DNA of 64,000 nt from an uncultured archaeon (GCA_964354805.1 CAYHBD010000035.1:22829-86828), one strand, 5' to 3'. Shown: positions 2 to 50,994, counted from the first letter of the stretch. Notes: a model not told the origin generated them from the sequence alone. Made by a program: numbers and translations.

Positions 2-862
2 AGCTGTTGCATAGCTTTGTTCATTTACTACAGAAACATCTACAAGAGGAAAATGCAGCTGAATGTGATGCAAATGGAGTCGGAATTCAAGGACAGCCTG
101 TACATTCTTGCCTCAAGAATGGGCGAAAACAGGCCTGTTGAGGAAGCGTTAAAGCATACAAGTAGGTTCCTGCCTGATTTCAAGATAAGCAAAAGGGTTT
201 TCGGCAGAACAATTGAAAACATTGAATTGCTTGGCATGCCTTTGGAGGCAGCGATTTTTGACCCGAACTACGGCAGCTTAAAGAATCTGCCGAGCAAAAC
301 AATCCAGACAGGCATGCGGATAATGGTTGATTCAGTCGGCCTGGGCGTCAATGTTGCGGCAAGAACCCTGATCTCCCTTTCGCTGCAATTGACGAACAAC
401 GAAAAAGTAAACCAGACACTGAAAACACTGATAAGCGACACCACAAGCATGATGCGGACAATGGCAGTATTCATTGTCCCTGTTGTTTTGGGCGTTACAA
501 CAGCTTTGCAGAAAATCGTGATGCTGACACTTGCAACAATCCAAAGCAGCAGCATGAAACAGACACTGGACGCGCTTAAAAACAGCGACCTGCCAGGGGG
601 CTTAAGCGGCATGACAACAGGCTTTTCCATGGACGCAACGCAATTCGGTTCAATAGTCAAGCCATGGCAGTTTCTGTTGATTGTTGCCATGTACGTAATT
701 GAATTGGTTATAATAATGGTTTTCTTTACAACAAAAATCGAAGAGGACAACAAGCTTTTGTTCAGCATAAACCTGGCAAAAGCCCTGCCTATTGCAGTAG
801 CGATTTTCCTCATAAGCGTACTGGCCTCAGGAACCATTGCAGGCGGCTTCTTCGGGGGATGA
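2..862 (+). CDS. Type II secretion/type IV pilus membrane platform protein (GspF/TadC-like), 5'-truncated by window edge
   Basis: Frame is open from position 2. 'ESEFKDSLYILASRMGENRPVEEAL...LGMPLEAA' resembles the T2SSF domain and is followed by C-terminal hydrophobic helices; a pilin-like gene is adjacent. Confidence 0.75.
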   Translation, partial: SCCIALFIYYRNIYKRKMQLNVMQMESEFKDSLYILASRMGENRPVEEALKHTSRFLPDFKISKRVFGRTIENIELLGMPLEAAIFDPNYGSLKNLPSKTIQTGMRIMVDSVGLGVNVAARTLISLSLQLTNNEKVNQTLKTLISDTTSMMRTMAVFIVPVVLGVTTALQKIVMLTLATIQSSSMKQTLDALKNSDLPGGLSGMTTGFSMDATQFGSIVKPWQFLLIVAMYVIELVIIMVFFTTKIEEDNKLLFSINLAKALPIAVAIFLISVLASGTIAGGFFGG

Positions 863-905
863 ATTGAATTGCGATTCAAGCAGGCTTTTTCAGAGGCGAT
901 TTGAT

Positions 906-1364
906 TTGAACGAGCAAGGTCAGGAGAGCAGCGGTTTTCGCCTGCTGGTGGAAGCAGTGATGGTTGTCTTTATTCTGGTGATAATCTTTGCTGTCATAAG
1001 CAAGCTGGACGAAGTAACGCAGCAGGCAAGCGAGAAAAGGCTGTTTGAAGGATTCAGCAAAGCAGTTGACAGCCCAGATGGCTCTGTAATATTCGAAAAA
1101 GACCTTGTTTTAAGGGAGGGCAGTGTTTACAGCAGAACAGCTTTTGCCGAGTCTGCAACCAACATTGAGCCAGACAGCATTTTAATTCAGGCAAGCAACA
1201 ACAGCGCCTTTTTGCTGCTCAACAACGGTTCAGCCGTTGAAATCAGGTCACTTGTTTCAACAGATGTATACTACCAATGCAAAACAGAGTATGAGGACGG
1301 CGAACGCAAGATTAGCTGCACTATCAGCTTTGGACAGGAATTGAAAGAGGGCGAACCAGAATAA
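906..1364 (+). CDS. Pilin-like protein with class III signal peptide
   Basis: Probable TTG start at 906 after GAGGCGAT gives MNEQG|QESSGFRLLVEAVMVVFILVIIF (G|Q, then a hydrophobic helix); directly downstream of the GspF-like gene. ORF track start is 837. Confidence 0.65.
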   Translation: MNEQGQESSGFRLLVEAVMVVFILVIIFAVISKLDEVTQQASEKRLFEGFSKAVDSPDGSVIFEKDLVLREGSVYSRTAFAESATNIEPDSILIQASNNSAFLLLNNGSAVEIRSLVSTDVYYQCKTEYEDGERKISCTISFGQELKEGEPE

Positions 1365-1419
1365 CAAAAAACAGCTCATCAGCTTTGGGCAGGAATTGAA
1401 AGAGCAGAAAACAGAATAA
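1323..1419 (+). repeat. Tandem duplication of the pilin-like gene 3' end
   Basis: 1323-1364 (ISFGQELKEGEPE*) is repeated at 1378-1419 (ISFGQELKEQKTE*); both are followed by CAAAAAA(AA)CAGC. Confidence 0.9.
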
Positions 1420-1515
1420 CAAAAAAAACAGCCTGTTTTTAAACAAGAACAAATTTCTGCGCAGGCTTTCTTTTCCAAACGTTTTTATACCAGTTTTGCT
1501 TTCTATATTCCATAT

Positions 1516-2064
1516 ATGGTTCTGGAATTAATCGGCGAAACAGCCTTTGCCCTGATTGACCTGCTCAGAATGGCGCTGATAGCGGCAATTCCGGCATTTG
1601 TTCTAACACTCTTGGGGCAAGCGCTGTTCAAAAAAATCAGGGGAAAAAAGAAGAAAACCAGTTGGATTGTTGCAGCATTTGCAGCAAGCTATAGTGTAAT
1701 GCTGATTGTTGTTTTCTTCCTCTACCTTTTCCCGTTATATCTGGGTTTCGTTGAAAGCGATTTGGCAAAGCAAACCCCACTTCCAGAAATGCAGCTGACA
1801 GTGGTTGACTATGGCGTTGCATTCTTTGCAACAATTGTAAAGAATTTGATAAGCGCGGTAGTGCTAACAATCCTATTGCTGCCATTGCTTTTCTTTGCCT
1901 CTTTTGTAAGCGAAAAAATAGAGGAAAGGAAAAAGCTGCCTGCACTGGCAAACACCTTTATTGCGGTTTACTGCACAGCATTGCTTGCCTGGGTGATTAT
2001 TTTGTTTGTTTTCCCCTGGGTGCTTAGCGGAATACTTTATTTGCTTTTCTGGAGCCAAATATAA
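1516..2064 (+). CDS. Hypothetical polytopic membrane protein
   Basis: 182-aa ORF with about 4-5 hydrophobic segments. Confidence 0.8.
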   Translation: MVLELIGETAFALIDLLRMALIAAIPAFVLTLLGQALFKKIRGKKKKTSWIVAAFAASYSVMLIVVFFLYLFPLYLGFVESDLAKQTPLPEMQLTVVDYGVAFFATIVKNLISAVVLTILLLPLLFFASFVSEKIEERKKLPALANTFIAVYCTALLAWVIILFVFPWVLSGILYLLFWSQI

Positions 2065-2080
2065 AAGGAGAAAAACGAAA

Positions 2081-5000
2081 ATGATTGCAAAAGCTTTTTT
2101 TGCAGAGCAAAAAAACCTCATTGCAAAACCCAAGTTTTGCAATGCCTCGCAAAGTAGTGCTTTGCAAGGTGGAAAAAACAGCCTTCGGCAAAGATTTTTT
2201 TGCATTACACTGATTGCGCTGATGCTGAACCTGAGCTTCTACCCTGCTTTTGCCCAAACAGATTTGCCGAAGGGAGATGCTGAAAACGAATTACAAAACA
2301 GCGCCCTGCTGGCAGACAATAGCGGTGAAAATGCAGTGGAAATGAATCCTCTGCCAAGTTGGAACATTGATGAACAAACACTGCAAAACAGCGCGCTGCT
2401 TGCAGACAATGCTGATGAAGAAACATTAACTGGGACAGAGCCGCAGACAGAGTCAAGCACAAAAAGAATTGAATTTACCTGCAACACGCCGGAAAGCAAC
2501 CCGGATGAAAAGGTTCTTTCCCCGCAGGAAGTGGCTGAACTGAAAAGGAAAACACAGTTGGATGCAAACGGCTTCGGCATTGACCAGATTGACAGCGGCA
2601 AAGGCAGCAATCCAAAAAGAGAGGAAAGCGTGAACAACCTTGTTGTGCAGAAAACAGACAACAACGCCGCAATCCTGAACCAGATTCCGGACAAAAAAAT
2701 GGACATTGGGGAATTGGCGCCATGGCTGAACAGGTTTTCCTCAGGGCCTTTCGCTTTCGGAGTTTCGCTGGATGATACCCTGAGAATTGGGCAGTGCAGG
2801 AACCTGCCGAAATTGGAGGCAGAGAAAATAGGCTGCCCTGTCCTGGACAAGCAGTTGTCTTACAGAAACAGCGGGGCAGGCATTACAAGCGATTTCAAAA
2901 ACGTTTACAATGATGTAAAGGATTTCATAAGCGAGGATTTGCTTGGAAAGGAAAAAGGCGCTGGGCAATACACTGCAGAGGAACTGGCGCAGCTGCAGGC
3001 AAACCTCGCAAGCGAAGACGACCTGAATGGCTTGCAGGCAAAGCAGGTGAAAAGGGAAGTTAATCCAATTGAAAACAGCATCAAAACAGATAATTTCACA
3101 GCAGAGATGGCGACAAACTGCAACCAAAACAGCTGCCTGGTGAGCAGCTACAGCTTTTTTGACAAATACTTCAACAGCTGGTTTTCAGCTGAAATGGTTG
3201 TAACCAGCTTTGGCCCAACCTTGTTCGGGCAGGCAAAAAGATACCTTGGCTGGATGAGGAGAAGGGGCTGGCCTTGGAGTATGTCAGACAATCAATTGCT
3301 GAACAAGTTCAGGAGACAATTCATGAACCCTGACAGCCTCATAGGCAAAGCCAGAACACAGAGAATGATTACAAGGGTTGACAAGTATGGCTTTGGCGAA
3401 GTCTGGACTCCGATGGTTGAATGCACTGACTGGGATTCGGGGTATAAATGGATTAAAGGCGGCAGCATGAGAAAAATGATTAACGAAATGAGTGCACCAG
3501 GCGGCTTTTTGGACAAATTGGATGACCCTGTGAGGAAAGGCGAGTTCTTTAAATTAGTAAGGGAAATGAACGGCTATGCTAAAACAAACAAAGCAATGAT
3601 TGGCTATGCCGATGAAGCGTATATGGGTGCTTTAAAGAAATTCGGCCCTGGCAGCCCTGAGGCAAGAAGTGCATTAATTGAATACGCCAGAACAAACGGA
3701 AAAGTTCTTGGGTGGATGGATGATGCCTTCAGCTTGGATGCACCAGAATGGTTTGCCAGAGACGACTATGCAGGATTGTATGATGTTGGAGTGAAGCATT
3801 TGCAGAGCGGAACAGTGCATCCTTTGAGCGGGGACAGCCACCATATCAGAGCAACAATAGACAAATTCGTACAGGACGGCGACTGGAGCAATTTTGACAC
3901 ATGGGGAAATAAGGCATACGAAGCAACAGAAGATGGCTTGCTGCAATTGTACAAAATTGACCCGGCAGGGGAATTCATCAGCGAAGTGGCAGTTGAAGAC
4001 CTGCAGAAGAATTTCTCGCACTTTGTTGACAAGGCAGCGTTAACTGAAAAAGGAGACTTGATTAGAATTGACGGGACAAGCATTGACTACATTGTAAAGG
4101 AAGCCCCGGGCACAGGAAAGGTAAAGGTATTCAAGGCAAGCTGGAAGCCGATTGAAGCTGAAACACCAGAAAGGTTTGCAGGAAGGCTGACCCACAGCAG
4201 GGTAAAAGGCAGGCTTACAGGCAACTTCCCCTCCAACACGCAAAGATTATACGATGCATTGGTTGAAAAGAATTTTGCAGGAAAAAGCAGGCACTACTAC
4301 AGCCTGCTTGACAAGGCTTTTGCCCAAGAAGATGAGATTTTAAAGAGCTATTTCAGTGTCAAAGGCGGCTTGAAATGGACAGCTCTTCCATTGGCTTACT
4401 GGGGCGGAAAGCAGGGCCTTGGCTTTGAGGGAATTAGCGCCTACCAGCTGCCTGACACATGGTATAACGTCGAAATGCACACAGGCGATGCCTCGCTGTT
4501 TGATGATGCATTCATTGACTTTTTTGCAAACGAAGGCAGCGATGAAGGCGACATATTTATCCAGGTGCTGAACAAGCTGCCCTGGAAAATGGTGTACAAT
4601 TACATTTGGGAGAATTATTTGCCTGCAAAGGACACTTACGAAAAACTGACAAATCCAAGCAGCGGCTGGAGAAGGGAGGTTGAAAACGTTGCATTAATCA
4701 GCTCAAGCGCTGAAGAATGCGCCAATTGCAGCATTGGCTTGTTTGTAAACACGCCGACAGAACAGTCAGTATCTGAACTAATGACAACAGGAAAAGGCGA
4801 GGCAAGGATTGAATTCAGCTCAAACCAGAAAATGCAATCATACCTGCTTGAGGATGTTTTGTCAGACAAAGCAAAAGAAGAGGGCACAACCCTGATTGCT
4901 TATGGGCACCATACGGATTTAAGCGGCAAGAGCCCTGCCGGAGAAAAGGGAATTGAGAACGGAAAAATTGATTTGGTTGAAGCGCGGAACAACAAGGAAA

Positions 5001-6958
5001 CATGCGCTGACAAGGTTAAAAAATTGGGTTTGGGCTTTTTGGGAGATGATCCGCAGAGGGCAGCTGCAGTGCTTGCATTCGGCGAAACAGCGCTTTATGC
5101 TGTCTTCTTCTGGAGCGGAATAATCGGCAGCGTGGTGCAGCAGACATTGCTTGTGCCTGAATTGCAGGACTGCGTTGATGACAAGGAGGGCTACTATCTG
5201 CACATGTTTGCCCCTGCATCAAAAGCCGCAAAGAGCGAGCCGCCAAACCAGAAGGCAAGCGAGAAAGCAGGCGACATAATAAAGAATGTGACGGACTTTG
5301 TTACAGGCAGCAAGGGAGATGCTGCAACTACCACTGAGAAAGCGCAGAGCAAGAGCGCCTGGCAGCAGGTATTGGATAAGGTTGCCCTGACTGCAAAGGA
5401 ATTGAGCGATAAAGCGCAGGCTTCAACTATTTTGCAGGCAAGCGTTGAAACATCCGGCAAGACTTATGGGATAGTTTCCTTCAAGCAGCTGTTCTTCTAC
5501 TGGTTCAAGGGAACGGCACAGCCTGCGGTGTATGACAATAAAACAAAAAGCTATTACAGGGATTTGGACAACAACATTGATGTGTTGATTGACAATGAAA
5601 AAGGCATTCTTGCCGTGAGCAAGGATGCTCAGCCGTTTGAAACAGTCATCGAGGGCAAAGACCATACAAGGCTTGCCACTCCAAGCAGTGAAAATACTTC
5701 TTTGGAGATTCCGCAGAGGATTGGCCAGATTGGTTTGCCGACTGAAGGCGCTGCGTTAAATGAAATGCTGTTTGAAATGGACTGGCAGGGCAGCCTTGCT
5801 GTTCATCCAGAGGTATTGGATTGCATTAGGGAAAACGTTGAACAGCAGACAGGCGTGCCTCTTTCAACAGATAAAATAACCGATGCTTTCGGCGCAGTGG
5901 AAGCAATTGTTACAACCTCGCATCCGAGAATTTCAGCGGATAAGGTAGAGAAGGCAATAATTGCAAATGGTTCCCCAAGAGAAATCGTTTACGGCGATAA
6001 CGCAAAGGCAACTGTTTTTGTGAACAGAAAAACTGTTTTGACCAACAGCACTGATGTTAACGTTGGATTGTTCCAGTCAATCCAGTTCAAGAACGGGGTG
6101 ATATTGTACAAGCCTGAAACGAATGAATTAATTATTTGGCTGAGGCATAACGAGCAGAGCATTTTAAGGCAGGGCGATGTCACTGGATTGAAAGCAACCC
6201 CCTCAAAAGTCATTAACGCTGAAACAGGATGCCCAGAGCCTGCAATCGATTTGGAAGCGCTGCCGAATTTGGAGGCGGGAGACCAAAGCGCAATAACAAA
6301 GAGGGTTGAAAACTTCAATGATTCTATTGAGAAAATGGGGCCATTCCAGACTTTTGACACTGAAAAGCACAGGTTCATTTTTTACAGCGTGAAAACAAGC
6401 CCAAGCTGCGACCCGAATACTGAGGGGTGCTGCCAGAGCAGAGTTAGAATAATCGACAAGGAAACAGGCGAGGTTATTGACGAGCCACTGGTTGGCGACA
6501 TTGAGAAAACCCCTACCGGAATAAAATTCACCACGCTTGGCCCAGATGGAAAGCAGACAGAGCATACTCTTGACTTCAGCGCAGAGAACGGCATTCCGAA
6601 AATCAGCTATGACGGAATGCCGCCTGAAACACTTTTAAGCGCCACAGGCCCAAACGGCAGCTTCTGGTATGACACTGAGAATGGGCAATGGTATCCGGAG
6701 AACGCGCAGCTGCTGCCATTGGATGATACATTCAAGCAGGGCTTTGACACAAGGCACAGGGAGGACTGCAGCGCCAGCACTCAAGGGGGAGGCAACACAA
6801 TGAATGTCCAGCTCGGCACAGGAGACACAGGCATGCCCTTCAATCTGCCCTCGCTGCCGGAACAGCCGCTTGCATTGCTGTTGTTTATTGTTTCATTGCT
6901 TGCAGTAATAGGGGTTGCAAGAATCGAGATTGAAAGAAAATTTAAATCGCTGCAGTGA
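2081..6958 (+). CDS. Large secreted protein with C-terminal membrane anchor, unknown function (~1625 aa)
   Basis: ATG 2081 after AGGAG; signal-like segment FFCITLIALMLNLSFYPAFA; many Cys pairs; C-terminal TM PLALLLFIVSLLAVIGVA then RIEIERK; N-terminal duplication LQNSALLADN x2. Confidence 0.85.
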   Translation: MIAKAFFAEQKNLIAKPKFCNASQSSALQGGKNSLRQRFFCITLIALMLNLSFYPAFAQTDLPKGDAENELQNSALLADNSGENAVEMNPLPSWNIDEQTLQNSALLADNADEETLTGTEPQTESSTKRIEFTCNTPESNPDEKVLSPQEVAELKRKTQLDANGFGIDQIDSGKGSNPKREESVNNLVVQKTDNNAAILNQIPDKKMDIGELAPWLNRFSSGPFAFGVSLDDTLRIGQCRNLPKLEAEKIGCPVLDKQLSYRNSGAGITSDFKNVYNDVKDFISEDLLGKEKGAGQYTAEELAQLQANLASEDDLNGLQAKQVKREVNPIENSIKTDNFTAEMATNCNQNSCLVSSYSFFDKYFNSWFSAEMVVTSFGPTLFGQAKRYLGWMRRRGWPWSMSDNQLLNKFRRQFMNPDSLIGKARTQRMITRVDKYGFGEVWTPMVECTDWDSGYKWIKGGSMRKMINEMSAPGGFLDKLDDPVRKGEFFKLVREMNGYAKTNKAMIGYADEAYMGALKKFGPGSPEARSALIEYARTNGKVLGWMDDAFSLDAPEWFARDDYAGLYDVGVKHLQSGTVHPLSGDSHHIRATIDKFVQDGDWSNFDTWGNKAYEATEDGLLQLYKIDPAGEFISEVAVEDLQKNFSHFVDKAALTEKGDLIRIDGTSIDYIVKEAPGTGKVKVFKASWKPIEAETPERFAGRLTHSRVKGRLTGNFPSNTQRLYDALVEKNFAGKSRHYYSLLDKAFAQEDEILKSYFSVKGGLKWTALPLAYWGGKQGLGFEGISAYQLPDTWYNVEMHTGDASLFDDAFIDFFANEGSDEGDIFIQVLNKLPWKMVYNYIWENYLPAKDTYEKLTNPSSGWRREVENVALISSSAEECANCSIGLFVNTPTEQSVSELMTTGKGEARIEFSSNQKMQSYLLEDVLSDKAKEEGTTLIAYGHHTDLSGKSPAGEKGIENGKIDLVEARNNKETCADKVKKLGLGFLGDDPQRAAAVLAFGETALYAVFFWSGIIGSVVQQTLLVPELQDCVDDKEGYYLHMFAPASKAAKSEPPNQKASEKAGDIIKNVTDFVTGSKGDAATTTEKAQSKSAWQQVLDKVALTAKELSDKAQASTILQASVETSGKTYGIVSFKQLFFYWFKGTAQPAVYDNKTKSYYRDLDNNIDVLIDNEKGILAVSKDAQPFETVIEGKDHTRLATPSSENTSLEIPQRIGQIGLPTEGAALNEMLFEMDWQGSLAVHPEVLDCIRENVEQQTGVPLSTDKITDAFGAVEAIVTTSHPRISADKVEKAIIANGSPREIVYGDNAKATVFVNRKTVLTNSTDVNVGLFQSIQFKNGVILYKPETNELIIWLRHNEQSILRQGDVTGLKATPSKVINAETGCPEPAIDLEALPNLEAGDQSAITKRVENFNDSIEKMGPFQTFDTEKHRFIFYSVKTSPSCDPNTEGCCQSRVRIIDKETGEVIDEPLVGDIEKTPTGIKFTTLGPDGKQTEHTLDFSAENGIPKISYDGMPPETLLSATGPNGSFWYDTENGQWYPENAQLLPLDDTFKQGFDTRHREDCSASTQGGGNTMNVQLGTGDTGMPFNLPSLPEQPLALLLFIVSLLAVIGVARIEIERKFKSLQ
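2091..2178. repeat. Three-hairpin palindromic element, in-frame in the CDS N-terminus
   Basis: AAGC-TTTTTTTGC/AGA/GCAAAAAAA-CCT-CATTGCAAAAC/CCAA/GTTTTGCAATG-CCTCGCAAAGT/AGT/GCTTTGCAAGG-TGGAAAAAA; same architecture as 20716-20807. Confidence 0.8.
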
Positions 6959-9888: not shown

Positions 9889-10168
9889 TCACTGCTAAAT
9901 TAAAAGACTAAAGTGGTTTAAAATGGTTTCTATTCGGGCAACAGCAGGTTGGGTAATGTTTAAATAGCACTTTACCCTTTGTTTAAACTGAAGCCCTCTT
10001 TCCATTCGCAAGGGCTTTAAATTTTCATTTATATAAACATTAATATATTAGTTGAAACAGAAATATTAATTAGGCATAGTAATAAAGTTAATGGAAAATT
10101 TGGCTGCAAAAATTTAAAGAAAATTAATTGGAACCAAAAAAAAGAATATTGGAAAAAGTGAACAGAGC

Positions 10169-20674: not shown

Positions 20675-20684
20675 AAACCTGCTG

Positions 20685-20853: not shown

Positions 20854-21018
20854 GCCGAATAAAAAAGGGCGAACGAAACCGCCAAAAACTGCTACAAAAG
20901 CTATTTAAATGGGAAAAGAGTAATGGATACTGGATTCATTTATTCGGAAACCGGAAGGCGTTTAAGTTAAATTAATAAATAAGAGGCAATAATAATATTA
21001 TATAGTTAAGAAGTGAAT

Positions 21019-21055
21019 AAGCCTTTCTTTAAAAAAAGAAAGCCTTGGGAAAAAG
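21019..21055. repeat. One-hairpin palindromic element, near-identical to the 5' part of the tRNA introns
   Basis: AAGCCTTTCTTTAAAAAAAGAAAGCCTTGGGAAAAAG. Confidence 0.9.
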
Positions 21056-21063
21056 TGGATAGC

Positions 21064-36888: not shown

Positions 36889-37056
36889 AAAGGAAGAATT
36901 AAAATAAAGAATGTTAATTTGAAAAAAAATTAATCAATTAATATTTTTGGTAGCAATAAAAAAATTTCAAGCAATGTATTCCCAAAAATTTAAATAAAAT
37001 TATTGGCAATCAAATAAAAAAAATAATTAATCAATCAATTCGGTTGGTTGAGCAAA

Positions 37057-44574: not shown

Positions 44575-44614
44575 TTGAATAAAATTGATTTATTTGCAAT
44601 TTAGGCGCTTTTTC

Positions 44615-44682: not shown

Positions 44683-44704
44683 AATTAGAAAAACTATTTT
44701 AATT

Positions 44705-45112
44705 ATGGTTTTTATGCTGCCTGACGCATTTCCTTTGCTGTTTGCCTTGTTTTCTTTCAGTGATTTTTTTTCGGACATGATGTTCGTTCTGCGGATTTTT
44801 GTCCTGCTTACAATAATCAGTTTCATTACAATGCATTTGGGCAAGGGTCCTCTTGCGATTGTTTTAATCGTCGGAATAAGCTGGTTTGTTTTGTTCGGCG
44901 CGTTCTGGTTTTTCGGCGGCGTGTATGTTTTGCTGATGCTGCTGATGTTCGGCGTGAGCGGGATTCTGATTGACTTCTTTTTCATCAAGGGGCCAGCAGG
45001 CGGCAACCAGCCAGATCAGCCTATAAGCCATGGAATTGATTTGCTGAAACAAAGGGGCGCCATGATGCATCAGAGGCGTCTGCCTCCGGGTGGCGGGGGC
45101 ATGCCTGGATAA
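44705..45112 (+). CDS. Small membrane protein (family A)
   Basis: Hydrophobic; motif 'SFITMHLGKGPLAIVLIVGISWF'. Confidence 0.75.
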   Translation: MVFMLPDAFPLLFALFSFSDFFSDMMFVLRIFVLLTIISFITMHLGKGPLAIVLIVGISWFVLFGAFWFFGGVYVLLMLLMFGVSGILIDFFFIKGPAGGNQPDQPISHGIDLLKQRGAMMHQRRLPPGGGGMPG

Positions 45113-45178
45113 GGCAAAGCAGGGGGTTAATATGTTTTTTCTCTCAATCAGCGCGGGAACAGCAAAAGGTGAAAAAAA

Positions 45179-45568
45179 ATGGGCACTATAATCAACCAGC
45201 AGGGCAGCGCAGGGAAAGGGCATTTGAAAGAACGCTACTTTCCAATTAACCAGCAGGGCAACATGTTTTTGTTCATTTTGATTGCATTCGTTGTGCTTGC
45301 TTTGATTCCGCCGGTTGTAATGGTGCTGTTTCCGGCAGCTGACATAATTATCAGGATAATCCTGGTTTTCCTTATTTTTTCAACTGTAAGGGGCATGTTG
45401 GGGGGCGGGATTCTCTCCCTGATAATAAGCGGCGTGCTGATTTACTTTTTGGTGATAAAGTGGGCTTATTTCACTGCATCAATGTATGTGTTCTTTTACT
45501 TCATCATGACTTTTGCTGTAACCAGCGTTGTAATCTGGGGAATTGGAATGAACCTGAGGAGGCAATGA
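45179..45568 (+). CDS. Small membrane protein (family A)
   Basis: 'STVRGMLGGGILSLIISGVLIYF'; N-terminal INQQG motif duplicated; exact start uncertain. Confidence 0.75.
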   Translation: MGTIINQQGSAGKGHLKERYFPINQQGNMFLFILIAFVVLALIPPVVMVLFPAADIIIRIILVFLIFSTVRGMLGGGILSLIISGVLIYFLVIKWAYFTASMYVFFYFIMTFAVTSVVIWGIGMNLRRQ

Positions 45569-45682
45569 GCCTTAGGATTAGGTGCAATTAAAACTGAAAC
45601 CGCAGGAATTGGAATGAACATAGGTGGCAATAAATCCCCGAATGGATTTGGTTTGCGATTTTAAAAAATCGCGGAATTTAAC

Positions 45683-45750
45683 CAAGAAACTTTTGGAAAA
45701 AGTTTCATCAAAAAAAGTGGCAATATATAAACTTTATATGCCACAAAAAA
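45683..45750. repeat. Two-hairpin intergenic element ('empty' version of 20685-20853)
   Basis: GAAACTTTT/GGA/AAAAGTTTC and GTGGCA...TGCCAC hairpins. Confidence 0.85.
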
Positions 45751-45813
45751 CTTGATAAATTAACAACAGCCTAAATGAGAAGGTTTAATAACAAAAAAGA
45801 GGAATAAATCTTT

Positions 45814-46089
45814 ATGGCGAGCGGAATGGAATTGCTTTTGCCTTTGCTGCAATTGAACGAGGCAACCTTGTACAATGACATCTGGACAGTTTTATCCCTT
45901 TTTTACCTTATCTGGATTTTTGGCTGGGCGAAAAAGGCTTTGGGCAGTGCAAAGCTGGCAATCCTCTTCGCAGTAATAGTTGTTTACCTGGCTTTCTTCC
46001 TGCACCCCGAGCTTGTGTGGATTCCGGTAATAATTTTCGTTTTCGCCGTATTCGGAAAAGGGGTTTTTGAAAAAATTGCTGTAAAATAA
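45814..46089 (+). CDS. Small membrane protein (family A)
   Basis: 'GWAKKALGSAKLAILFAVIVVYL'. Confidence 0.75.
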   Translation: MASGMELLLPLLQLNEATLYNDIWTVLSLFYLIWIFGWAKKALGSAKLAILFAVIVVYLAFFLHPELVWIPVIIFVFAVFGKGVFEKIAVK

Positions 46090-46221
46090 GCTGGTGACGG
46101 AAAAAAGTTTGGGCATCGAAGCTGTGGATTGCAAAAAAAATTAAGCAAAAGTTGTGAAAAAAAAGTTTGGGCTTGAAAAGGAAAAATTGGACTGAAAATT
46201 TAAACAAAAAGGTGACGCGCT

Positions 46222-46563
46222 TTGGACACTTTCACTTTCGCTATTTCACTTGTTTTAATGATGCTGGCAATCCAGTTTGAGCAAAACTGGCTGATTTTCG
46301 CAATAGTTACATTAATGGTCCTGACAATGCGCTCCGTTGGAACAACAGCGCTGCTGATAATTTCAACCATTGTTTTATTTGTTGCAAGGGATTACTTGAA
46401 GGAATACTGGCCATTTGTTTTATTCGGCTTGATAATCCTCGCTGTGCTGATTGGCGCAATCGGCAAAAAAGGGGAAGCAGAGCAGGCGCCGATGGATATG
46501 TACGGAGGGGGATTCGGCGGCGGCTTTGAAGGCGGCTTAGGCGGATTGCCAGGCGGGCTGTGA
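46222..46563 (+). CDS. Small membrane protein with Gly-rich tail
   Basis: TTG start after AGGTGA; about 4 short TM segments; tail YGGGFGGGFEGGLGGLPGGL. Confidence 0.8.
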   Translation: MDTFTFAISLVLMMLAIQFEQNWLIFAIVTLMVLTMRSVGTTALLIISTIVLFVARDYLKEYWPFVLFGLIILAVLIGAIGKKGEAEQAPMDMYGGGFGGGFEGGLGGLPGGL

Positions 46564-46653
46564 AATTTAATTTAAATAGTCTGGTTTTTGAAGGGGTTTT
46601 TGAAATTGAATTGCATTCTGCGTGCCCATATTAAATTGCAAGGTGGCGTATAA

Positions 46654-47025
46654 TTGAACTGGGAAATTTTCCTTTCGCTGATTGCTGCAACGCTTGCGTT
46701 CATTTTCCTAGACCAGCCGCTGCCGGCTGGCTTGTGCGCAATAGCTGCTTTCATTATTGCGCTTGCAAAAGTTGGAAAGAAAACAGCCAAGGCAGCGAAA
46801 GTAACCGGGCAGGTGTTTTCATCAGGAGTAAGAGAGGATGTAAGCAAGGCTGAAGGAGCTGCTGTAGATGCAGGCGTTTTCGTCCAGGGAGTGCAGAATG
46901 CAGGCGACCTCACAGCACAGCAATTGCACGCGAAAGACAAGCAGCGCTTCAAATACAAGGGCATTGGGGCAGTTGGGGAAGCATGCGGCAGGCTGATTGA
47001 CGGGTTCAAAAGGCTGTTCAAGTGA
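46654..47025 (+). CDS. Small membrane-anchored hypothetical protein
   Basis: Two N-terminal TM segments, then an amphipathic region. Confidence 0.7.
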   Translation: MNWEIFLSLIAATLAFIFLDQPLPAGLCAIAAFIIALAKVGKKTAKAAKVTGQVFSSGVREDVSKAEGAAVDAGVFVQGVQNAGDLTAQQLHAKDKQRFKYKGIGAVGEACGRLIDGFKRLFK

Positions 47026-47029
47026 GATT

Positions 47030-48838
47030 ATGACAAAAAGAAATTTGGCGGCATTTTTTATTTCTATTCTTTTTTTAGGGATAGCCTTAAGCGGATGCGT
47101 TCAAACACCAGTTTGCAATGACGGGTCGTGCCTTATAGGAGTAGAAGACGACCCAAACTCAACAGCATACTGCATAGCAGACTGCGGACCAAAACCAGGA
47201 AGCTTGGAGGTAACAGTAATCAGCAGCTTCATAGGAGGAACACGTCTTTCTGACGCTAAAGTAGTGGTTGAAGGCTACGATTCTAATTTCAGCGCAACAG
47301 AATATGCCAACAGCGATGGCATTGCATTATTTGAATCAGTGCCACCAGGGGCATACAAAATCACTGCATCAAAGGAAGGCTACCTGCTAAAGGATGCAAA
47401 CGCAGAAGTGACAGCAGGCCAAACAACAAGCATTAGAATAAAACTGCAATTTCATCCAGAAATAATAAAAAGTTGTAAAGAGAGTGGGGGCATTATTTGT
47501 GAAGATTATGAAGTTTGCAAGGGGGTTATTTTAAAAGCAAATGACACAAATAGGTGCTGTTTAGGAACTTGTACATTACCAGAATCATTTGATTGGAGAA
47601 ATAGGCATGGAGAGAATTGGATGACTCCTATTAGGGACCAAGGCAATGCAGGCAATTGTTTTATTTTTGGAAAAATAGGTTCATTTGAATCACAAATTAA
47701 TTTATATTTTAATCAGCATTTAAATGCAGACTTATCTGAGCAAATTCAGGCCGATTGTATTGAAGGAATACAACCGGGGTCTTTTTTATTTGCACCAGAA
47801 TGTACAAACTATGATTGTGTTCCGGCAAACAGATATTGTAATTTTATACATGCCGGAATTCCAGATGAGCAGTGCGATTCATATAATTCAAGATGGCCCA
47901 ATCCTAATAATTGTGATGAAAACCACATTTGTTCTAATTGGAAAAATAGAACTTGGAAAAATTCTGATTTTTATGATTATACTTATGGATTTTGGAATAA
48001 TAGTAAAGAATGTCCACAAACAATAGTAAACTTTTCTAACGATGATTTAAAAAAGATAATCATTGAAAAAGGGCCTCCATATGTCCGTGTCGATCCCTGG
48101 AGTCATGGGATGGTATTGACAGGGTATCTAAACAATAAAAGCGACTGGAAAACTATAAATTATTGCAATATTGGAAATGCTGAATTTTGTATTCCTTCTA
48201 AAGGATGTATCTCCAGAGTTTGTAATAATATCGGAGAAGAGATAAAAACATGCGTAAATGATTATCAATATTATTTTAGTGGAGAAGTAAATTCCGGTAT
48301 ATATACTTATAAATGTGAAAATCGATCCGACGAGGAAAATTATTTTGTCTTAAAAAATTCAATTTCTTGTTCAATCAACCAAATATGCATCAATAATGAA
48401 TGCGTCAATTCTGCAGGTTTTCAGCTAAAAGAAGGACAGATAGAATGTACTAAATACCATGCCGATTTTGACCAAGGTTTTTTTAATGGTTTGGTAAGAT
48501 ATTCTCCAAACGATGGTGATACAATTTGGGTTTTTAAAAATAGTTGGGGTGAAAATTATGGAGACGAGGGTTACATAAAGTTTGCATTACCTTCTGTAGC
48601 TATTAAAGAACTAAGCATAGCAATAGGGCCTTTTGTTCCCCCTTTAGACAAACAATTCTGGCCATCAGGATTTAATAACAAGATTAAATGTGTTGACAAA
48701 GATAATGATAATTTTTGTAATTGGGGAATAACCAAAGAAAAGCCTTCAACATGCCCTTCCAACTGCAAAAATGATAAAGACTGGGATGATTCAAATTCAA
48801 GTATTGGAGCACTAGGATTATACGAAGAGACAATATAA
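47030..48838 (+). CDS. Lipoprotein with carboxypeptidase-regulatory-like domain and papain-family (C1) cysteine peptidase
   Basis: Lipobox-like 'GIALSGC'; 'LPESFDWRN', 'PIRDQGNAGNCFIF' (oxyanion Gln, catalytic Cys), 'HGMVLTGY', 'WVFKNSWGENYGDEGY'. Confidence 0.88.
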   Translation: MTKRNLAAFFISILFLGIALSGCVQTPVCNDGSCLIGVEDDPNSTAYCIADCGPKPGSLEVTVISSFIGGTRLSDAKVVVEGYDSNFSATEYANSDGIALFESVPPGAYKITASKEGYLLKDANAEVTAGQTTSIRIKLQFHPEIIKSCKESGGIICEDYEVCKGVILKANDTNRCCLGTCTLPESFDWRNRHGENWMTPIRDQGNAGNCFIFGKIGSFESQINLYFNQHLNADLSEQIQADCIEGIQPGSFLFAPECTNYDCVPANRYCNFIHAGIPDEQCDSYNSRWPNPNNCDENHICSNWKNRTWKNSDFYDYTYGFWNNSKECPQTIVNFSNDDLKKIIIEKGPPYVRVDPWSHGMVLTGYLNNKSDWKTINYCNIGNAEFCIPSKGCISRVCNNIGEEIKTCVNDYQYYFSGEVNSGIYTYKCENRSDEENYFVLKNSISCSINQICINNECVNSAGFQLKEGQIECTKYHADFDQGFFNGLVRYSPNDGDTIWVFKNSWGENYGDEGYIKFALPSVAIKELSIAIGPFVPPLDKQFWPSGFNNKIKCVDKDNDNFCNWGITKEKPSTCPSNCKNDKDWDDSNSSIGALGLYEETI

Positions 48839-48862
48839 AATAACAAAGAACTTCAAAAGCCG

Positions 48863-49396
48863 TCAAATCTTTCCGAGAATTCCCCTGTCGGTTTCCAGTA
48901 TTTTTTCCATCACTGATTGCAGCGCCTTTGTCAATGCCTTTAAGTCGCTCACCTGTTTTTCCAATAAAGCCAGCTTTTGGTTTGTCACGGCAATCAATTC
49001 AACCAAATCCCTGTTGCTCGGCGACTCTGTAAGGCCGTGGATTTTTCCAAGGCTTTCCTCAACGCCGCCAATCTTTTCACCCAGCTCATCCAGCTTTGCA
49101 GCATGGCCCTCCATTGCTGCATGCGTTGTTGTATGCATTGCTTCCTGGGCTGCATGCTGCTGGGCAAGCTGCTCCCTCAAATCAGGCCTTGTTACAGAAT
49201 ACGCTGACCCTGCTTCTTCCTCTGCTTCCTCACTTTCAGCAGCAGGTCTTGCGCCTGATTTCGCGGCAGCCATTGCTTCCCTTATTTCTTTTTCTCCCAA
49301 TCCAATGTCTGCAAGCGTTTGCCTTACAACACTGTCCTCTATGCCGCTTTCATACATTTTGCGGATTGTTTGCAGAACAACTGCCTTGTCAACCAT
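48863..49396 (-). CDS. Hypothetical coiled-coil protein
   Basis: Small helical N-terminal domain plus heptad-rich C-terminus. Confidence 0.75.
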   Translation of the reverse strand: MVDKAVVLQTIRKMYESGIEDSVVRQTLADIGLGEKEIREAMAAAKSGARPAAESEEAEEEAGSAYSVTRPDLREQLAQQHAAQEAMHTTTHAAMEGHAAKLDELGEKIGGVEESLGKIHGLTESPSNRDLVELIAVTNQKLALLEKQVSDLKALTKALQSVMEKILETDRGILGKI

Positions 49397-49500
49397 AAAA
49401 AAACGCCTAAATAGGGCAATTGAAAGTTTTATATTTTACTTATAATATATTTATAGTTATTTAAATAGCTGCCGTATTAAATTTACTGGGATTTTTCCAT

Positions 49501-50994
49501 ATGGAATTAAGATTGCGTTCCGGTCCTTGGACAACTGTTTTCAAGGGCAATTTTTTGGGCCATGAAATGGAACTGCTGCGCAACCCCGAGGGCGTGCTAT
49601 TGGTTGCGATTTTTGAAAAAGAGGCGGGCATTACATCGGGAGTCCTGCTGCAGGCATTCAATGTATTTAATGCAATCGGCGAAGTGCAGGGATTTGTTGA
49701 AAATCTGAGCAATGAGGCAATTGTACTGTCAAGGCATGATGGAAAAAACAGCGTGCACTTTTTGCTTGCGGGCTCAAAGCCTGAATACAGCAGAATGAAC
49801 GAGGAAAAGCTTGCGGCAACAGTTGACGAATTGATGCACCAAGCAAGGCAGAGAAGCAAAATGCTTTCAGACATAAGCAAGGCATACGAATTGCAGCTGG
49901 CGCCGTTGCAGGCGTGCGATGAAAGCATCAGGCAATTGTTCTTCAGCCAGCCTTTCATTATACCGGCTTTTTTCAAGGAAGAGAAAAAAACAGCGGAGGA
50001 AAGGGCGGCATCAGTGCCAAGCGGAGCCTCAATGCTTGTCGGAATGACAAAAGAAGAAAAGCAGATAAAAGAGCCCCTGCATTTTTTCAAAACAACAGTT
50101 GTGGAAGGCAGTACAGAAAAGGAAAGGCTGCACTTCATCCATTTGCTGATTGAAAGCGCTTTGATCGGAAATGTTGCGGCAATTGTTTTTGACAGGCGAT
50201 ACTATTTCAGCGGATTGCAGAAGCCGAACAGGGACAGCGCTTTATTGCAGCGATTCAAAGTGGATATTGAGCCAATCGGTTTCCCGGTCAAAAACTTCAA
50301 GGCAGCACAGGATTTGAAGGCAAACCTTGCAAGCATTGACATGGCTGCGGTACTGCAATCATTCGGATGCAGCGCTGTAACCTGCCAGCTGGTGCAAAAC
50401 GCCGCAAGCGGAAAACAAATTGAAAGCCAAGCGCAATTAATCGAAGCAGTGAATGCAACAAGCGGGGAACAAACCTATTTGTTTGAAATAAACAGGGCAA
50501 ACAGGATAATAAAATTAATTGACTCAATTTACCCAGGCTTGTTCAACGGCAGCAATGACCTGCAGGAAATCGCAAAAGGCTGGACGCACATTGGCAGGGC
50601 AAGCATTGTTCAAACAACAGAACTGGACAAAAGAGCTGAAGCGATTCTGGTTAACGGCCTGTTGAACGAGCTGCTTGCTTTCTTTAAGCAAAAAGGTGAA
50701 ACAAAAGCAATGAGGTGCATTGTTGTTCTGCCTGAAGCTGAAAAGATTTTCCCGAGAAAACAAAACCCGCTGAGCAAAAACTCGCTGAATGCGCTGAAGC
50801 AATTGCCGCAATTCGGTGTCGGCTTTGCAGTAACAGCGGAAAAAACCCTTGACCTTGATAATGAACTGCTTAACTTGGCTGATGCCATGGTGACAATAGT
50901 TAAAGAAAACGATGCAGCAATCCAGCTGAAAGGCCAAAAAGGCTACAGGGCACTGCTCAGGCCTGGATTGAGCGAATGCAGCGAAACAGAGTAA
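49501..50994 (+). CDS. Degenerate HerA/FtsK/VirB4-like P-loop protein
   Basis: 'TTVVEGSTEKERLHFIHLLIES...AAIVFD' at the Walker A position, 'CIVVLPEAEKIF' at the Walker B position, 'LPQFGVGFAVTAEKTLDLD' at the RKFG..TQ position. Confidence 0.65.
   Translation: MELRLRSGPWTTVFKGNFLGHEMELLRNPEGVLLVAIFEKEAGITSGVLLQAFNVFNAIGEVQGFVENLSNEAIVLSRHDGKNSVHFLLAGSKPEYSRMNEEKLAATVDELMHQARQRSKMLSDISKAYELQLAPLQACDESIRQLFFSQPFIIPAFFKEEKKTAEERAASVPSGASMLVGMTKEEKQIKEPLHFFKTTVVEGSTEKERLHFIHLLIESALIGNVAAIVFDRRYYFSGLQKPNRDSALLQRFKVDIEPIGFPVKNFKAAQDLKANLASIDMAAVLQSFGCSAVTCQLVQNAASGKQIESQAQLIEAVNATSGEQTYLFEINRANRIIKLIDSIYPGLFNGSNDLQEIAKGWTHIGRASIVQTTELDKRAEAILVNGLLNELLAFFKQKGETKAMRCIVVLPEAEKIFPRKQNPLSKNSLNALKQLPQFGVGFAVTAEKTLDLDNELLNLADAMVTIVKENDAAIQLKGQKGYRALLRPGLSECSETE

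What the first reader, a model, noticed from the sequence alone, without database searches (positions are those of the whole stretch)
2..50994. Candidate undescribed envelope machine: pilus platform, pilins, four giant paralogs, small membrane proteins, protease and dead ATPase
Seen: more than 35 kb encodes five 1.6-2.9-kaa proteins, co-oriented with a GspF/TadC-like gene, two class III signal-like proteins, five small membrane proteins and a C1 peptidase lipoprotein. The four giants share a cytoplasmic N-terminal motif (Y..(L/A/M)E(D/E)(K/R)(Y/W)Y...P(S/A)F plus TM), tandem beta-sandwich repeats, a central R(A/T)W...P.D..LG...ALYA domain and a (Y/F)CDA.Q block. Three also share later PF(D/N)G..G...R.GYG, ATP and WN blocks. 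Established: many DPANN are host-attached symbionts with reduced genomes, so this is a large coding investment. Inference: a hetero-oligomeric stalk or attachment organelle assembled or powered by a type IV filament system, for host binding, penetration or nutrient transfer.
Basis: inference. Interest (0 to 1): 0.85.

Follow-up and report, generated by a model that had tools for sequence, protein, structure and literature searches.

The report
Giant surface-protein array of Iainarchaeota
A small DPANN archaeon (Iainarchaeota/Diapherotrites) spends about 3% of its genome on a conserved row of four 2,500-2,900-residue membrane-anchored surface proteins with a pilin-like protein and small membrane proteins. 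These are probably long adhesive fibres tied to type IV pilus machinery; the row was mentioned once in the literature but never dissected.

Summary
The window (G000:C35:22829-86828, an Iainarchaeota MAG) encodes a TadC-like platform, pilin-like proteins, a 1,650-aa protein (G0), four paralogous giants (G1-G4, 2,469-2,875 aa), five small membrane proteins, a C1 peptidase and a HerA-like pseudo-ATPase.

Conserved core in relatives: G1, a 558-aa class-III-signal pilin-like protein, G2, G3, G4, then four small membrane proteins. The giants' C-terminal domain occurs in 188 of 196 genomes of the order. The N-terminal module occurs across the phylum. G1-G4 are ancient orthogroups.

G0 is unrelated to the giants. 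It belongs to a separate type IV pilus module (ATPase, TadC, pilins, 4-TM protein, G0) that usually lies 5-20 kb away, mostly divergently. The C1 peptidase is not conserved. The pseudo-ATPase sits between opposite-strand genes next to PolB, so its membership is doubtful.

New leads: a fifth paralog on another contig is followed directly by a FlaK/PibD-type A24 prepilin peptidase in seven related genomes. The confidently modelled C-terminal domain matches no solved fold.

Prior art: Probst & Banfield 2018 noted five large membrane-anchored proteins in Ca. Forterrea.

Verdict: a real, lineage-wide surface-fibre cluster. The pilus link is plausible but unproven. "Machine", "stalk" and "penetration" remain speculation.

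The parts
2..862 (+). C-terminal 286 aa of TadC_B, a 773-aa FlaJ/TadC (T2SSF) platform protein of pilus module B. The gene starts upstream at C35:21369. The partner 760-aa T2SSE ATPase is at C35:18977-21259.
   Evidence: Pfam T2SSF and T2SSE. NCBIfam FlaI/TadA-like, 1.9e-39. Orthologs in 194 of 215 phylum genomes.
837..1364 (+). p175, a pilin-like protein of module B. The true start is probably internal, giving M-N-E-Q-G-Q before the hydrophobic helix.
   Evidence: N-terminal sequence. Orthologs carry KGQ-type class III signals directly after TadC_B in G010, G019, G020 and G026.
1516..2064 (+). p182, a 4-5-TM membrane protein paired with G0.
   Evidence: Hydropathy. An ortholog lies directly upstream of G0 in G010, G026 and G028.
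2006..6958 (+). G0, ~1,626-1,650 aa, with a signal peptide and a C-terminal TM anchor. It is an S-layer-like accessory protein of pilus module B and is not related to G1-G4.
   Evidence: Sequence. No BLAST similarity to the giants. An ortholog lies 5-12 kb from TadC_B in 5 of 5 relatives. No Pfam or Atlas hit.
10107..10146 (+). AT-rich 40-nt element upstream of G1, repeated upstream of G4 (36983-37022). Possibly a shared promoter (TTTAAA box).
   Evidence: 2 matches found against 0.1 expected.
10169..18796 (+). G1, 2,875 aa. It has the N-terminal module, one TM helix, Ig-like repeats and the central domain. Its C-terminal third is its own: helical and Lys/Ala-rich, followed by a DxDxDG-type acidic repeat.
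   Evidence: The G1 clade has 100% support.
18998..20674 (+). p558, a Cys-rich 558-aa pilin-like protein with a canonical class III signal ([KR][GA] then F-N/T-L-F-T/S-A-L).
   Evidence: Single copy in 77 of 84 good genomes of the order. Always lies between G1 and G2.
21013..29154 (+). G2, 2,713 aa (the start is probably near 21061). It carries Gly/Tyr-rich low-complexity inserts.
29479..36888 (+). G3, 2,469 aa. The C-terminal 430 aa form a conserved domain that matches no solved fold.
   Evidence: AF2 pLDDT 85-87. Fold searches.
37048..44574 (+). G4, 2,508 aa (the start is probably at 37057).
44705..47025 (+). Five small polytopic membrane proteins: tm135 (44705-45112), tm129 (45179-45568), tm91 (45814-46089), tm113 (46222-46563), tm123 (46654-47025).
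   Evidence: Sequences and hydropathy. The first four are conserved after G4 in G010, G019 and G028 (1e-10 to 1e-48). tm123 is conserved only weakly, in G010.
46997..48838 (+). C1 (papain-family) peptidase lipoprotein with a CarboxypepD_reg domain. It is specific to this genome and not a conserved member of the cluster.
   Evidence: Pfam. No ortholog at the locus in relatives.
49501..50994 (+). p497, a HerA/FtsK-like pseudo-ATPase. Its membership in the cluster is doubtful.
   Evidence: Near the array in 4 of 5 relatives, but flanked by minus-strand genes and PolB.

Best explanation
This is a lineage-specific cell-surface fibre cluster of Iainarchaeota (Diapherotrites).

Components. Four anciently diverged paralogs (G1-G4), plus a fifth elsewhere in the genome, are single-pass proteins with the N-terminus inside and the C-terminus outside. 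Each has a conserved 40-60-residue cytoplasmic module ending in P-S/A-F at the membrane face, then one TM helix. A long chain of Ig-like/prealbumin-like domains follows, with a conserved central domain, a variable insert and, in G2-G5, a conserved ~430-residue distal head of unknown fold. They are co-encoded with a 500-600-residue type IV pilin-like protein (p558) and four small polytopic membrane proteins.

Proposed mechanism (inferred). The giants project tens of nanometres from the cell. They act as non-redundant adhesive or contact fibres towards other cells or surfaces. Their installation is coupled to type IV pilus-type processing: p558 needs an A24 prepilin peptidase and a TadC/ATPase platform, and the giants' P-S/A-F junction may itself be cut by a FlaK/PibD-type peptidase.

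Shown versus inferred. Gene content, conservation, predicted topology, domain composition and the class III signal of p558 are shown. Fibre formation, adhesion, leader cleavage and dependence on the pilus module are inferred.

Other genes in the finding. The adjacent ATPase-TadC-pilins-p182-G0 set is an ordinary archaeal type IV pilus locus with an S-layer-like accessory protein. The C1 peptidase is incidental. The pseudo-ATPase is probably not part of the cluster.
For: - Paralogy and shared blocks.
- N-terminal module: always at the N-terminus, in 1,133 sequence clusters and in 28 aligned members. Named records are almost all Ca. Iainarchaeum/Diapherotrites/AR10.
- Distribution: the C-terminal domain is in 188 of 215 phylum genomes, which is 188 of 196 in the order. 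N-module giants are also in 5 of 5 genomes of other orders.
- Age of the paralogs: four clades each span six genomes (SH-aLRT support 92-100), so the set predates family divergence.
- Gene order: G1-p558-G2-G3-G4-tm135-tm129-tm91-tm113 is fixed.
- p558: class III signal in 6 of 6 orthologs. It lies 13-18 kb upstream of the G3 C-terminus on the same strand in more than 45 genomes.
- Pilus module: ATPase and TadC lie next to the window and near G1 in most genomes.
- Fifth paralog: followed within 10-24 bp by an A24 + Arc_PepC peptidase in G000, G010 and G011. Adjacent by coordinates in G003, G007 and G012, and divergent in G009. The expected Asp residues are present.
- Topology: one strong TM helix only.
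- Folds: Ig-like/CARDB domains. The head domain is modelled at pLDDT 85, pTM 0.82, with best VIA-align Z of 3.8, to adhesin beta-sandwiches.
- Literature: Probst & Banfield 2018 independently read the Forterrea array as cell-cell interaction proteins.
Against: - There are no expression, localisation or structural data.
- The residue before the hydrophobic helix is G only in G1 orthologs. It is N, V, A or I in the others, so it is not a canonical class III site.
- The dedicated A24 peptidase was found only in the window's own family: 13 of 22 family genomes searched carry a clear ortholog. Other families have two A24 genes, neither near the giants.
- Pilus module B is broader than the G2-G4-type C-terminal domain, which was not detected outside the window's order. 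It is mostly divergently transcribed and lies 80-100 kb away in G020 and G131.
- Synteny in this order also extends to PolB and methionine aminopeptidase, so neighbourhood conservation may reflect slow rearrangement.
- Iainarchaeota may be free-living, which would leave the adhesion target undefined.
Confidence: 0.6

Rival explanations
1. The giants are the structural cell envelope of these archaea, an S-layer or sheath substitute built from several very large subunits. They would have no specific role in contacting other cells.
For: Near-universal in the order (188 of 196). Orthogroups are ancient and kept in fixed order. The coding investment is about 3% of the genome. No other recognisable S-layer family was seen in the window.
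Against: By background knowledge, archaeal S-layers usually use one or two subunits of 40-200 kDa. Four or five different ~270-kDa chains with variable low-complexity inserts are atypical. G0, with a signal peptide and C-terminal TM anchor, is a better S-layer-like candidate (Makarova 2016). Chains of Ig-like domains ending in a distal head resemble fibrillar adhesins more than lattice formers. There is no match to any S-layer Pfam family or PDB sequence.
Confidence: 0.15
2. The giants are ordinary Sec/YidC-inserted signal-anchored adhesins that work independently of any type IV pilus system. Proximity to TadC/ATPase and to the A24 peptidase reflects conserved gene order, and p558 is simply a neighbouring minor pilin.
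For: Synteny extends into housekeeping genes. Module B is present where the G2-G4-type C-terminal domain was not detected, and it is unlinked in G020 and G131. The junction is non-canonical. The dedicated A24 peptidase is restricted to one family.
Against: p558 is single-copy and stays inside the array even where module B is 80-100 kb away. The A24 gene is kept directly beside the fifth paralog in seven genomes, including one with a divergent arrangement. The strongly conserved cytoplasmic module ending exactly at the membrane face needs an explanation.
Confidence: 0.2
3. The giants are membrane-attacking or translocating devices. Gly/Ala-rich hydrophobic segments in the variable insert would enter a partner cell's membrane to open a channel for nutrient uptake.
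For: Paired Gly/Ala-rich segments flank the variable insert in G1, G3 and G4 (earlier notes). The alignment keeps G-rich columns there. In Nanohaloarchaeota, SPEARE giants are proposed to form pores.
Against: These segments are only weakly hydrophobic (Kyte-Doolittle at most 1.7, against 3.1 for the anchor) and are absent in G2. No toxin, pore or fusogen domain was found by Pfam, PDB sequence search or fold search. The class II fusion protein rows in Foldseek have TM-scores of 0.05-0.09 and are noise.
Confidence: 0.05

Closest known systems
[quoted passage not shown] Forterrea multitransposorum (Probst & Banfield 2018, PMC5905446)
   Same: Very probably the same gene family and array. A complete 0.84-Mb genome of the same order (G020) carries G1-p558-G2-G3-G4 in one block. 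The proposed role, cell-cell interaction, is the same.
   Different: The paper gives one sentence and a cartoon. It has no family definition, paralog structure, N-terminal module, pilin-like partner, peptidase link or distribution. That G020 is Forterrea itself is my inference from its size and single contig.
Archaeal type IV pilus loci with accessory S-layer-like and adhesin or large minor-pilin proteins (Makarova, Koonin & Albers 2016, PMC4858521)
   Same: ATPase + TadC + several class III pilins + a large protein with a C-terminal TM anchor (G0) + a large pilin-like protein (p558) fits their general model.
   Different: Their survey does not mention DPANN or Diapherotrites in the main text (0 occurrences). 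It describes nothing like a tandem set of ~2,500-aa N-anchored paralogs with a conserved cytoplasmic leader.
Sulfolobus bindosome (surface proteins with class III signals, installed by the BasE/BasF ATPase-TadC pair)
   Same: The idea that non-filament surface proteins use prepilin-type signals and a pilus-like platform to be placed in the envelope. ATPase_B gives a weak hit to the BasE model (8e-20, far below its cutoff).
   Different: Bindosome substrates are ~50-kDa sugar-binding proteins with canonical signals. Here cleavage is unproven and the proteins are five times larger. This resemblance comes from background knowledge and is a lead, not a test.
SPEARE giant proteins of Nanohaloarchaeota (Hamm et al. 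2019, PMC6642349)
   Same: Very long, mostly extracytoplasmic, single-TM DPANN proteins with adhesion domains. They take several per cent of a small genome and were found beside type IV pilus-like genes.
   Different: SPEARE proteins carry protease, toxin-like and restriction-endonuclease domains and are mostly C-terminally anchored. None of these domains is present here, and there is no sequence relation.
Fibrillar adhesins of bacteria (MSCRAMM/SdrD, Cna, pilus shaft pilins)
   Same: A stalk of tandem Ig-like/prealbumin-like domains ending in a distal binding region. The best, weak fold matches of the head are to such adhesins (Z 3.3-3.8). Pfam SpaA, SdrD_B and Big_1 give hits.
   Different: Anchoring is by an N-terminal TM helix, not a C-terminal sortase signal. 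The head and central domains have no detectable relative. These are archaeal, lineage-restricted proteins.

Membership tests
Type IV filament system (archaeal T4P type) | VirB11/FlaI-family secretion ATPase (T2SSE) | tested here: met
   C35:18977-21259, 760 aa, Pfam T2SSE 8e-17 and NCBIfam FlaI 1.9e-39. It lies just upstream of the window. The genome has six T2SSE genes.
Type IV filament system (archaeal T4P type) | Polytopic FlaJ/TadC (T2SSF) platform protein | tested here: met
   773-aa ORF ending at window 862. Pfam T2SSF 2.4e-4 (21.5 bits, under the 25.2 cutoff). About 10 hydrophobic helices, adjacent to the ATPase, and orthologs in 194 of 215 genomes.
Type IV filament system (archaeal T4P type) | Substrates with class III signal peptides (short basic leader, G/A, then a hydrophobic helix) | tested here: met
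   p558 and its six orthologs read [KR][GA]-F-N/T-L-F-T/S-A-L. p175 and the module-B small proteins carry KGQ-type signals. This rests on sequence pattern only; cleavage was not tested.
Type IV filament system (archaeal T4P type) | A24 prepilin peptidase | tested here: met
   Three Peptidase_A24 genes in the genome, none in the window. One has A24 + Arc_PepC domains and retains D24 and D81.
Type IV pilins (are the giants G1-G5 themselves pilin-like substrates?) | Canonical cleavage site ([KR]-[G/A/S] directly before the hydrophobic helix) and a short leader | tested here: inconclusive
   G1 orthologs have [KR]G before (I/V/M)P(S/A)F. G2 has N and G3-G5 have V, A or I at that position. The leader is 40-60 aa and conserved. 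Genomic association of G5 with an A24 peptidase argues for it.
Known S-layer protein families | Sequence match to a described S-layer family over most of the length | tested here: not met
   Pfam gives only Ig-like/CarboxypepD_reg repeats. A family profile against PDB sequences gives only Ig-like hits with E at or above 0.017. Fold-level similarity of the untested central region remains open.
HerA/FtsK P-loop ATPases (p497) | Overall family resemblance | tested here: inconclusive
   Atlas feature score 0.96 to DUF87/HerA_C/TrwB clusters, with ten of ten top hits in the same clan. NCBIfam HerA E = 0.047. No Pfam hit.
HerA/FtsK P-loop ATPases (p497) | Walker A (GxxxxGK[ST]) and Walker B (hhhhDE) | tested here: not met
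   At the expected positions p497 reads G-S-T-E-K-E-R-L and V-V-L-P-E-A-E. Both are also degenerate in all four orthologs. It is therefore a pseudo-ATPase.
Papain-family cysteine peptidase C1 | Pfam Peptidase_C1 above the gathering score | tested here: met
   65.5 bits against a cutoff of 20.7. Catalytic residues were not checked. It is not conserved at the locus.

The most novel reading that the evidence does not exclude
The giants are 'mega-pilins'. A FlaK/PibD-type A24 peptidase removes their conserved 40-60-residue leader at the P-S/A-F junction; in the window's family this would be the dedicated paralog. The freed N-terminal helices are then assembled with p558 by a TadC/ATPase platform into a short composite base. 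That base carries four or five different ~270-kDa fibres. This would be a new kind of type IV filament-derived attachment organelle, specific to Iainarchaeota, with a distal head of a previously unseen fold.
Probability: 0.2. Interest if true: 0.8.

Novelty: new variant of a known kind. Interest (0 to 1): 0.55.

Why it matters
No DPANN attachment structure has a known molecular composition. The cryo-ET paper on the Nanobdellota YN1 attachment organelle does not mention type IV pili, pilins or candidate genes for the structure (0 occurrences of these terms).

This cluster is a concrete, phylum-wide candidate set for the cell surface of Iainarchaeota. It comprises defined orthogroups, a diagnostic N-terminal module and an always-associated pilin-like protein. 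It also includes a possible dedicated peptidase and a confidently modelled domain without a structural relative.

It gives targets for metaproteomics, antibody or cryo-ET labelling in enrichments, and structural work. It also raises a testable question: can prepilin-type peptidases handle very large substrates with long leaders?

If the proteins turn out to be plain adhesins, the result is still a useful annotation of roughly 800-1,100 'hypothetical' protein clusters.

Tried and rejected
- Pfam, NCBIfam and a PDB sequence profile gave only Ig-like repeats for the giants. They gave nothing for G0, p558 or the small membrane proteins, apart from a sub-threshold DUF7598 hit for tm113.
- Foldseek and VIA-align on the 689-residue model matched only the embedded CARDB/Ig-like domain (Z 11.6).
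- On the 430-residue head alone, Foldseek found nothing at E <= 1e-3 and VIA-align nothing at Z >= 5. The flavivirus E and class II fusion rows have TM-scores of 0.05-0.09 and rmsd of ~30 A, and I rejected them as noise. Only the 211-374 sub-domain was really tested.
- The ESM Atlas gave no usable hit for G0.
A narrower alignment worked.
- I considered the internal Gly/Ala segments as extra TM helices and rejected this on hydropathy.
- I considered the C1 peptidase as a maturation protease of the system and rejected it, because it has no ortholog at the locus.
- I first read G010 as 'pilus module unlinked'. I withdrew that because both contigs end close to the genes.
- ORFs sA203 and sA195 upstream are probably spurious. 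A conserved gene lies on the other strand there.
- The careful tree search did not finish, so the quick IQ-TREE tree is reported.

Full report
**Where the window lies.** The window is G000:C35:22829-86828, the end of an 86.8-kb contig. The MAG is 1.38 Mb in 49 contigs and 88.5% complete. Homologs of its large proteins carry names such as Candidatus Diapherotrites, Candidatus Iainarchaeum and archaeon GW2011_AR10. The organism is therefore a DPANN archaeon of the phylum Iainarchaeota. Archaeal housekeeping genes fit this: CTP-dependent riboflavin kinase, PAC2 and family B DNA polymerase.

**Checking the observation.**
- The plus strand carries ORFs of 1,650 (G0), 2,875 (G1), 2,713 (G2), 2,469 (G3) and 2,508 aa (G4), 36.6 kb in all.
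- BLASTP shows that G2, G3 and G4 are strong paralogs. E-values are 1e-101 to 1e-115 over the first 1,200-1,450 residues, with further matches in the last ~400.
- G1 shares only the first ~1,000 residues (1e-19 to 1e-24). G0 matches none of them.
- The N-terminal motif, the central RAW...ALYA block and the (Y/F)CDA.Q block are all visible in the translations. So are the three later blocks shared by G2-G4. They appear as invariant columns in a 34-member alignment.
- Pfam finds only CarboxypepD_reg, SpaA, SdrD_B and Big_1-type beta-sandwich repeats.
- Each giant has one strongly hydrophobic helix right after the motif (Kyte-Doolittle ~3.1). The internal Gly/Ala-rich segments flagged by other first-stage notes reach at most 1.7 and are absent in G2.
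- The first ORF of the window is the C-terminal 286 residues of a 773-aa T2SSF protein.
- p558 begins M-N-E-R-A-F-N-L-F-T-A-L-V, a class III signal. p175 contains Q-G-Q-E-S-S-G-F followed by a hydrophobic helix.
- The five small ORFs at 44.7-47.0 kb are polytopic membrane proteins.
- The 613-aa protein has a lipobox-like signal and a Peptidase_C1 domain.
- The 497-aa protein resembles HerA/FtsK ATPases by protein-language features (0.96). It lacks Walker A and B in all five orthologs aligned.
One correction: G0 is not one of the paralogs.

**Upstream of the window.** The 22.8 kb before the window hold two pilus-type sets.
- Set A has a 484-aa T2SSE ATPase with two T2SSF proteins.
- Set B has a 760-aa T2SSE ATPase directly followed by the 773-aa TadC that runs into the window.
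- The genome as a whole has six T2SSE genes and three A24 prepilin peptidases, none of them in the window.

**What is conserved.** I mapped the region in five relatives with long contigs from five families of the order: G010, G019, G020, G026 and G028. Two modules emerge.
- Module 1 is G1, p558, G2, G3, G4, tm135, tm129, tm91, tm113. It is followed by a minus-strand coiled-coil gene, p497, another minus-strand gene, PolB and methionine aminopeptidase.
- Module 2 is ATPase_B, TadC_B, five to seven small proteins with KGQ-type class III signals, the 4-TM protein p182 and G0.
- In G000 most of the module-2 pilin genes have moved to contig C30.
- The C1 peptidase has no ortholog at the locus in the five relatives or in 22 genomes of the same family.
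- p497 follows the array in four of five relatives but lies elsewhere in G020. Because it sits between opposite-strand genes and next to PolB, its presence may only reflect conserved gene order.

**Distribution.**
- The C-terminal 689 residues of G3 find matches in 188 of 215 genomes of the phylum. That is 188 of 196 in the window's order and none of 19 in other orders.
- A query with the first 1,300 residues of G2 does find 1,500-2,800-aa ORFs carrying the N-terminal module in five of five genomes of those other orders. The N-module giant superfamily is therefore phylum-wide, while the G2-G4 head domain is order-wide.
- A profile of the 80-residue N-terminal module found 1,133 clusters at E <= 1e-3, and 800 at E <= 1e-10, in an exhaustive search of 1.84 billion representatives. 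Among the 150 listed, the match begins within the first 50 residues in nearly all. The lengths are about 1,000-3,300 aa, or short, probably contig-truncated.
- A quick maximum-likelihood tree of 24 N-terminal halves recovers clades for G1 (100), G2 (92), G3 (93) and G4 (99). The G1-G3 clades contain all six genomes. The G4 clade contains four: G026 has no G4 at the locus and G020's copy falls outside it. The four-paralog set therefore predates the divergence of these families. G020's branches are long, so their exact placement is uncertain.

**The pilus link.** Three lines of evidence bear on it.
1. p558 is a core member of the array.
   - It is single-copy in 77 of 84 genomes at least 88% complete, across all 21 families sampled.
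   - Its orthologs keep a canonical class III signal.
   - Combining, it lies on the same strand 13-18 kb upstream of the G3 C-terminus in more than 45 genomes. That position is between G1 and G2.
   - This includes G020 and G131, where TadC_B is 80-100 kb away.
2. TadC_B lies 26-40 kb from the G3 C-terminus in most genomes where both are on one contig. That puts it roughly 5-20 kb from the start of G1.
   - It is usually divergent. It is co-oriented only in the window's family (G000, G003, G007).
   - TadC_B is present in 194 of 215 genomes, including orders where the G2-G4-type C-terminal domain was not detected.
   - Synteny here also includes housekeeping genes. This second line is therefore weak.
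3. An HMM of the N-terminal module found a fifth paralog, G5, at C9:160520-167185 (2,221 aa).
   - Sixteen bases downstream on the same strand is a 356-aa protein with Peptidase_A24 and Arc_PepC domains, both over the Pfam cutoffs. It retains Asp24 and Asp81.
   - The same G5-peptidase pair, with gaps of 10-24 bp, occurs in G010 and G011.
   - By coordinates the pair also occurs in G003, G007 and G012, and divergently in G009.
   - Clear orthologs of this third A24 paralog (E <= 1e-69) were found in 13 of 22 other genomes of the window's family. It was not found in other families, which have two A24 genes elsewhere.
   - By background knowledge, specialised prepilin peptidases are typically encoded beside their substrates. 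The giants' invariant Pro and near-invariant Phe of P-S/A-F sit exactly at the cytoplasmic face, where such enzymes cut.
   - Against this, only G1 orthologs have the usual [KR]G before the hydrophobic stretch.

**Structure.**
- AlphaFold2 with a 34-sequence family alignment modelled G3 residues 1781-2469 at pLDDT 87.2 and pTM 0.79. The last 430 residues alone came out at 85.4 and 0.82.
- In the longer model only an embedded CARDB/Ig-like domain (residues ~115-226) finds relatives: Z 11.6 by VIA-align, and Foldseek TMt 0.65 to PF1109 CARDB.
- The head domain finds nothing by Foldseek at E <= 1e-3. By VIA-align the best Z is 3.8, with rmsd of 3.5-4.0 A over 94-98 residues. The matches are beta-sandwiches of Gram-positive adhesins and shaft pilins, and they cover only residues 211-374.
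- I therefore describe the head as having no detectable solved relative. I do not claim it is proven to be a new fold.
- Its invariant residues (three Asp, Arg-Gly-Tyr-Gly, Trp-Asn) suggest a conserved binding or metal site. This is inference.

**Literature.**
- Probst & Banfield (2018) wrote of Ca. [quoted passage not shown] This is very probably the same array, so its bare existence is not new.
- Makarova et al. (2016) describe archaeal type IV pilus loci with S-layer-like proteins bearing a C-terminal TM anchor, and with large adhesin or minor-pilin proteins. This covers module 2 and G0, but they did not treat DPANN.
- Nothing found in searches of DPANN papers describes the N-terminal module, the paralog set, p558 or the peptidase pairing.
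- SPEARE proteins of Nanohaloarchaeota are a conceptual parallel with different domains.
- The Forterrea paper also recalls that Diapherotrites had been considered free-living. 'Host attachment' is therefore an assumption for this lineage.

**Mechanism and verdict.**
- I commit at about 0.6 to surface fibres. Each is anchored by an N-terminal helix, built from roughly 15-20 beta-sandwich domains and displays a conserved head. The four or five paralogs have non-redundant roles in contacting other cells or surfaces. They are installed together with a pilin-like protein and four small membrane proteins.
- Coupling to prepilin-type processing and a TadC/ATPase platform is plausible at about 0.4. 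The specific mega-pilin version is about 0.2.
- The words 'machine', 'hetero-oligomeric stalk', 'powered', 'penetration' and 'nutrient transfer' have no direct support.
- The C1 peptidase should be dropped from the system, and the pseudo-ATPase probably should be too.
- I class the finding as a new variant of a known kind: giant DPANN surface adhesin-like proteins associated with type IV pilus genes. Its interest is moderate.

Noticed in passing
G000:C9:155786-158661 (L020:5786-8661, minus strand): Two radical SAM/SPASM proteins (481 and 359 aa) lie just downstream of the G5-A24 peptidase pair. The ortholog of the 481-aa one follows the peptidase in G010 and G011 too. Possibly a maturase linked to this operon.
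   Followed up: partly
window 10107-10146 and 36983-37022: A 40-nt AT-rich element (CAAAAATTTAAA[G/T]AAAATTA...) occurs only twice in the window, 40-60 nt upstream of the G1 and G4 start codons (0.1 expected by chance). It looks like a shared BRE/TATA promoter.
   Followed up: partly
window 1323-1371 and 1378-1426: A tandem 49-nt duplication (88% identical) spans the 3' end of p175 and the spacer after it, repeating the last codons and the stop.
   Followed up: no
G000:C30:18804-23348: The five or six pilin genes that follow TadC_B in relatives sit on another contig in this genome, so pilus module B has been split by a rearrangement or an assembly break.
   Followed up: partly
G028:C1:161109-169298 (L010): A further 2,729-aa ORF directly upstream of G1 in this relative has no BLAST similarity to G0-G4 and lacks the N-terminal module. 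It is another, unrelated giant in the same neighbourhood.
   Followed up: no
L021:1589-10588 and L022:1107-9678: In G010 and G011 an extra paralog upstream of G5 is split in three. A 1,491-aa piece carries the N-terminal module. A ~580-aa secreted protein follows, then a 790-950-aa protein with its own signal peptide and the C-terminal head domain. This may be a natural 'two-chain' version of a giant.
   Followed up: no
window 60174-61250: A 358-aa ORF with a LAGLIDADG_3 homing-endonuclease-like domain stands free, not inside an obvious host gene.
   Followed up: no
window 54258-56531: A 757-aa protein with a PKD domain lies just after PolB. It is another probable surface protein outside the conserved array.
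   Followed up: no
C35:9639-13478 (L001/L002): A 1,279-aa ORF upstream of pilus set A; its first 787 aa (the part scanned) have no Pfam match. A 163-aa fragment similar to it lies next to G1 in G010.
   Followed up: no
genome contigs C12, C19 (GC 0.61) and C14, C24 (GC 0.29-0.31): Several 1.6-3.8-kb contigs differ strongly in GC content from the rest of the MAG (0.43-0.45) and may be mis-binned.
   Followed up: no
L040, L047, L065, L081, L084, L089: Contigs carrying the Iainarchaeota N-terminal module are filed in public bins labelled Chloroflexota, Thaumarchaeota, Falkowbacteria or Micrarchaeota. This is probably mis-binning, and the module could serve as a marker to detect it.
   Followed up: no
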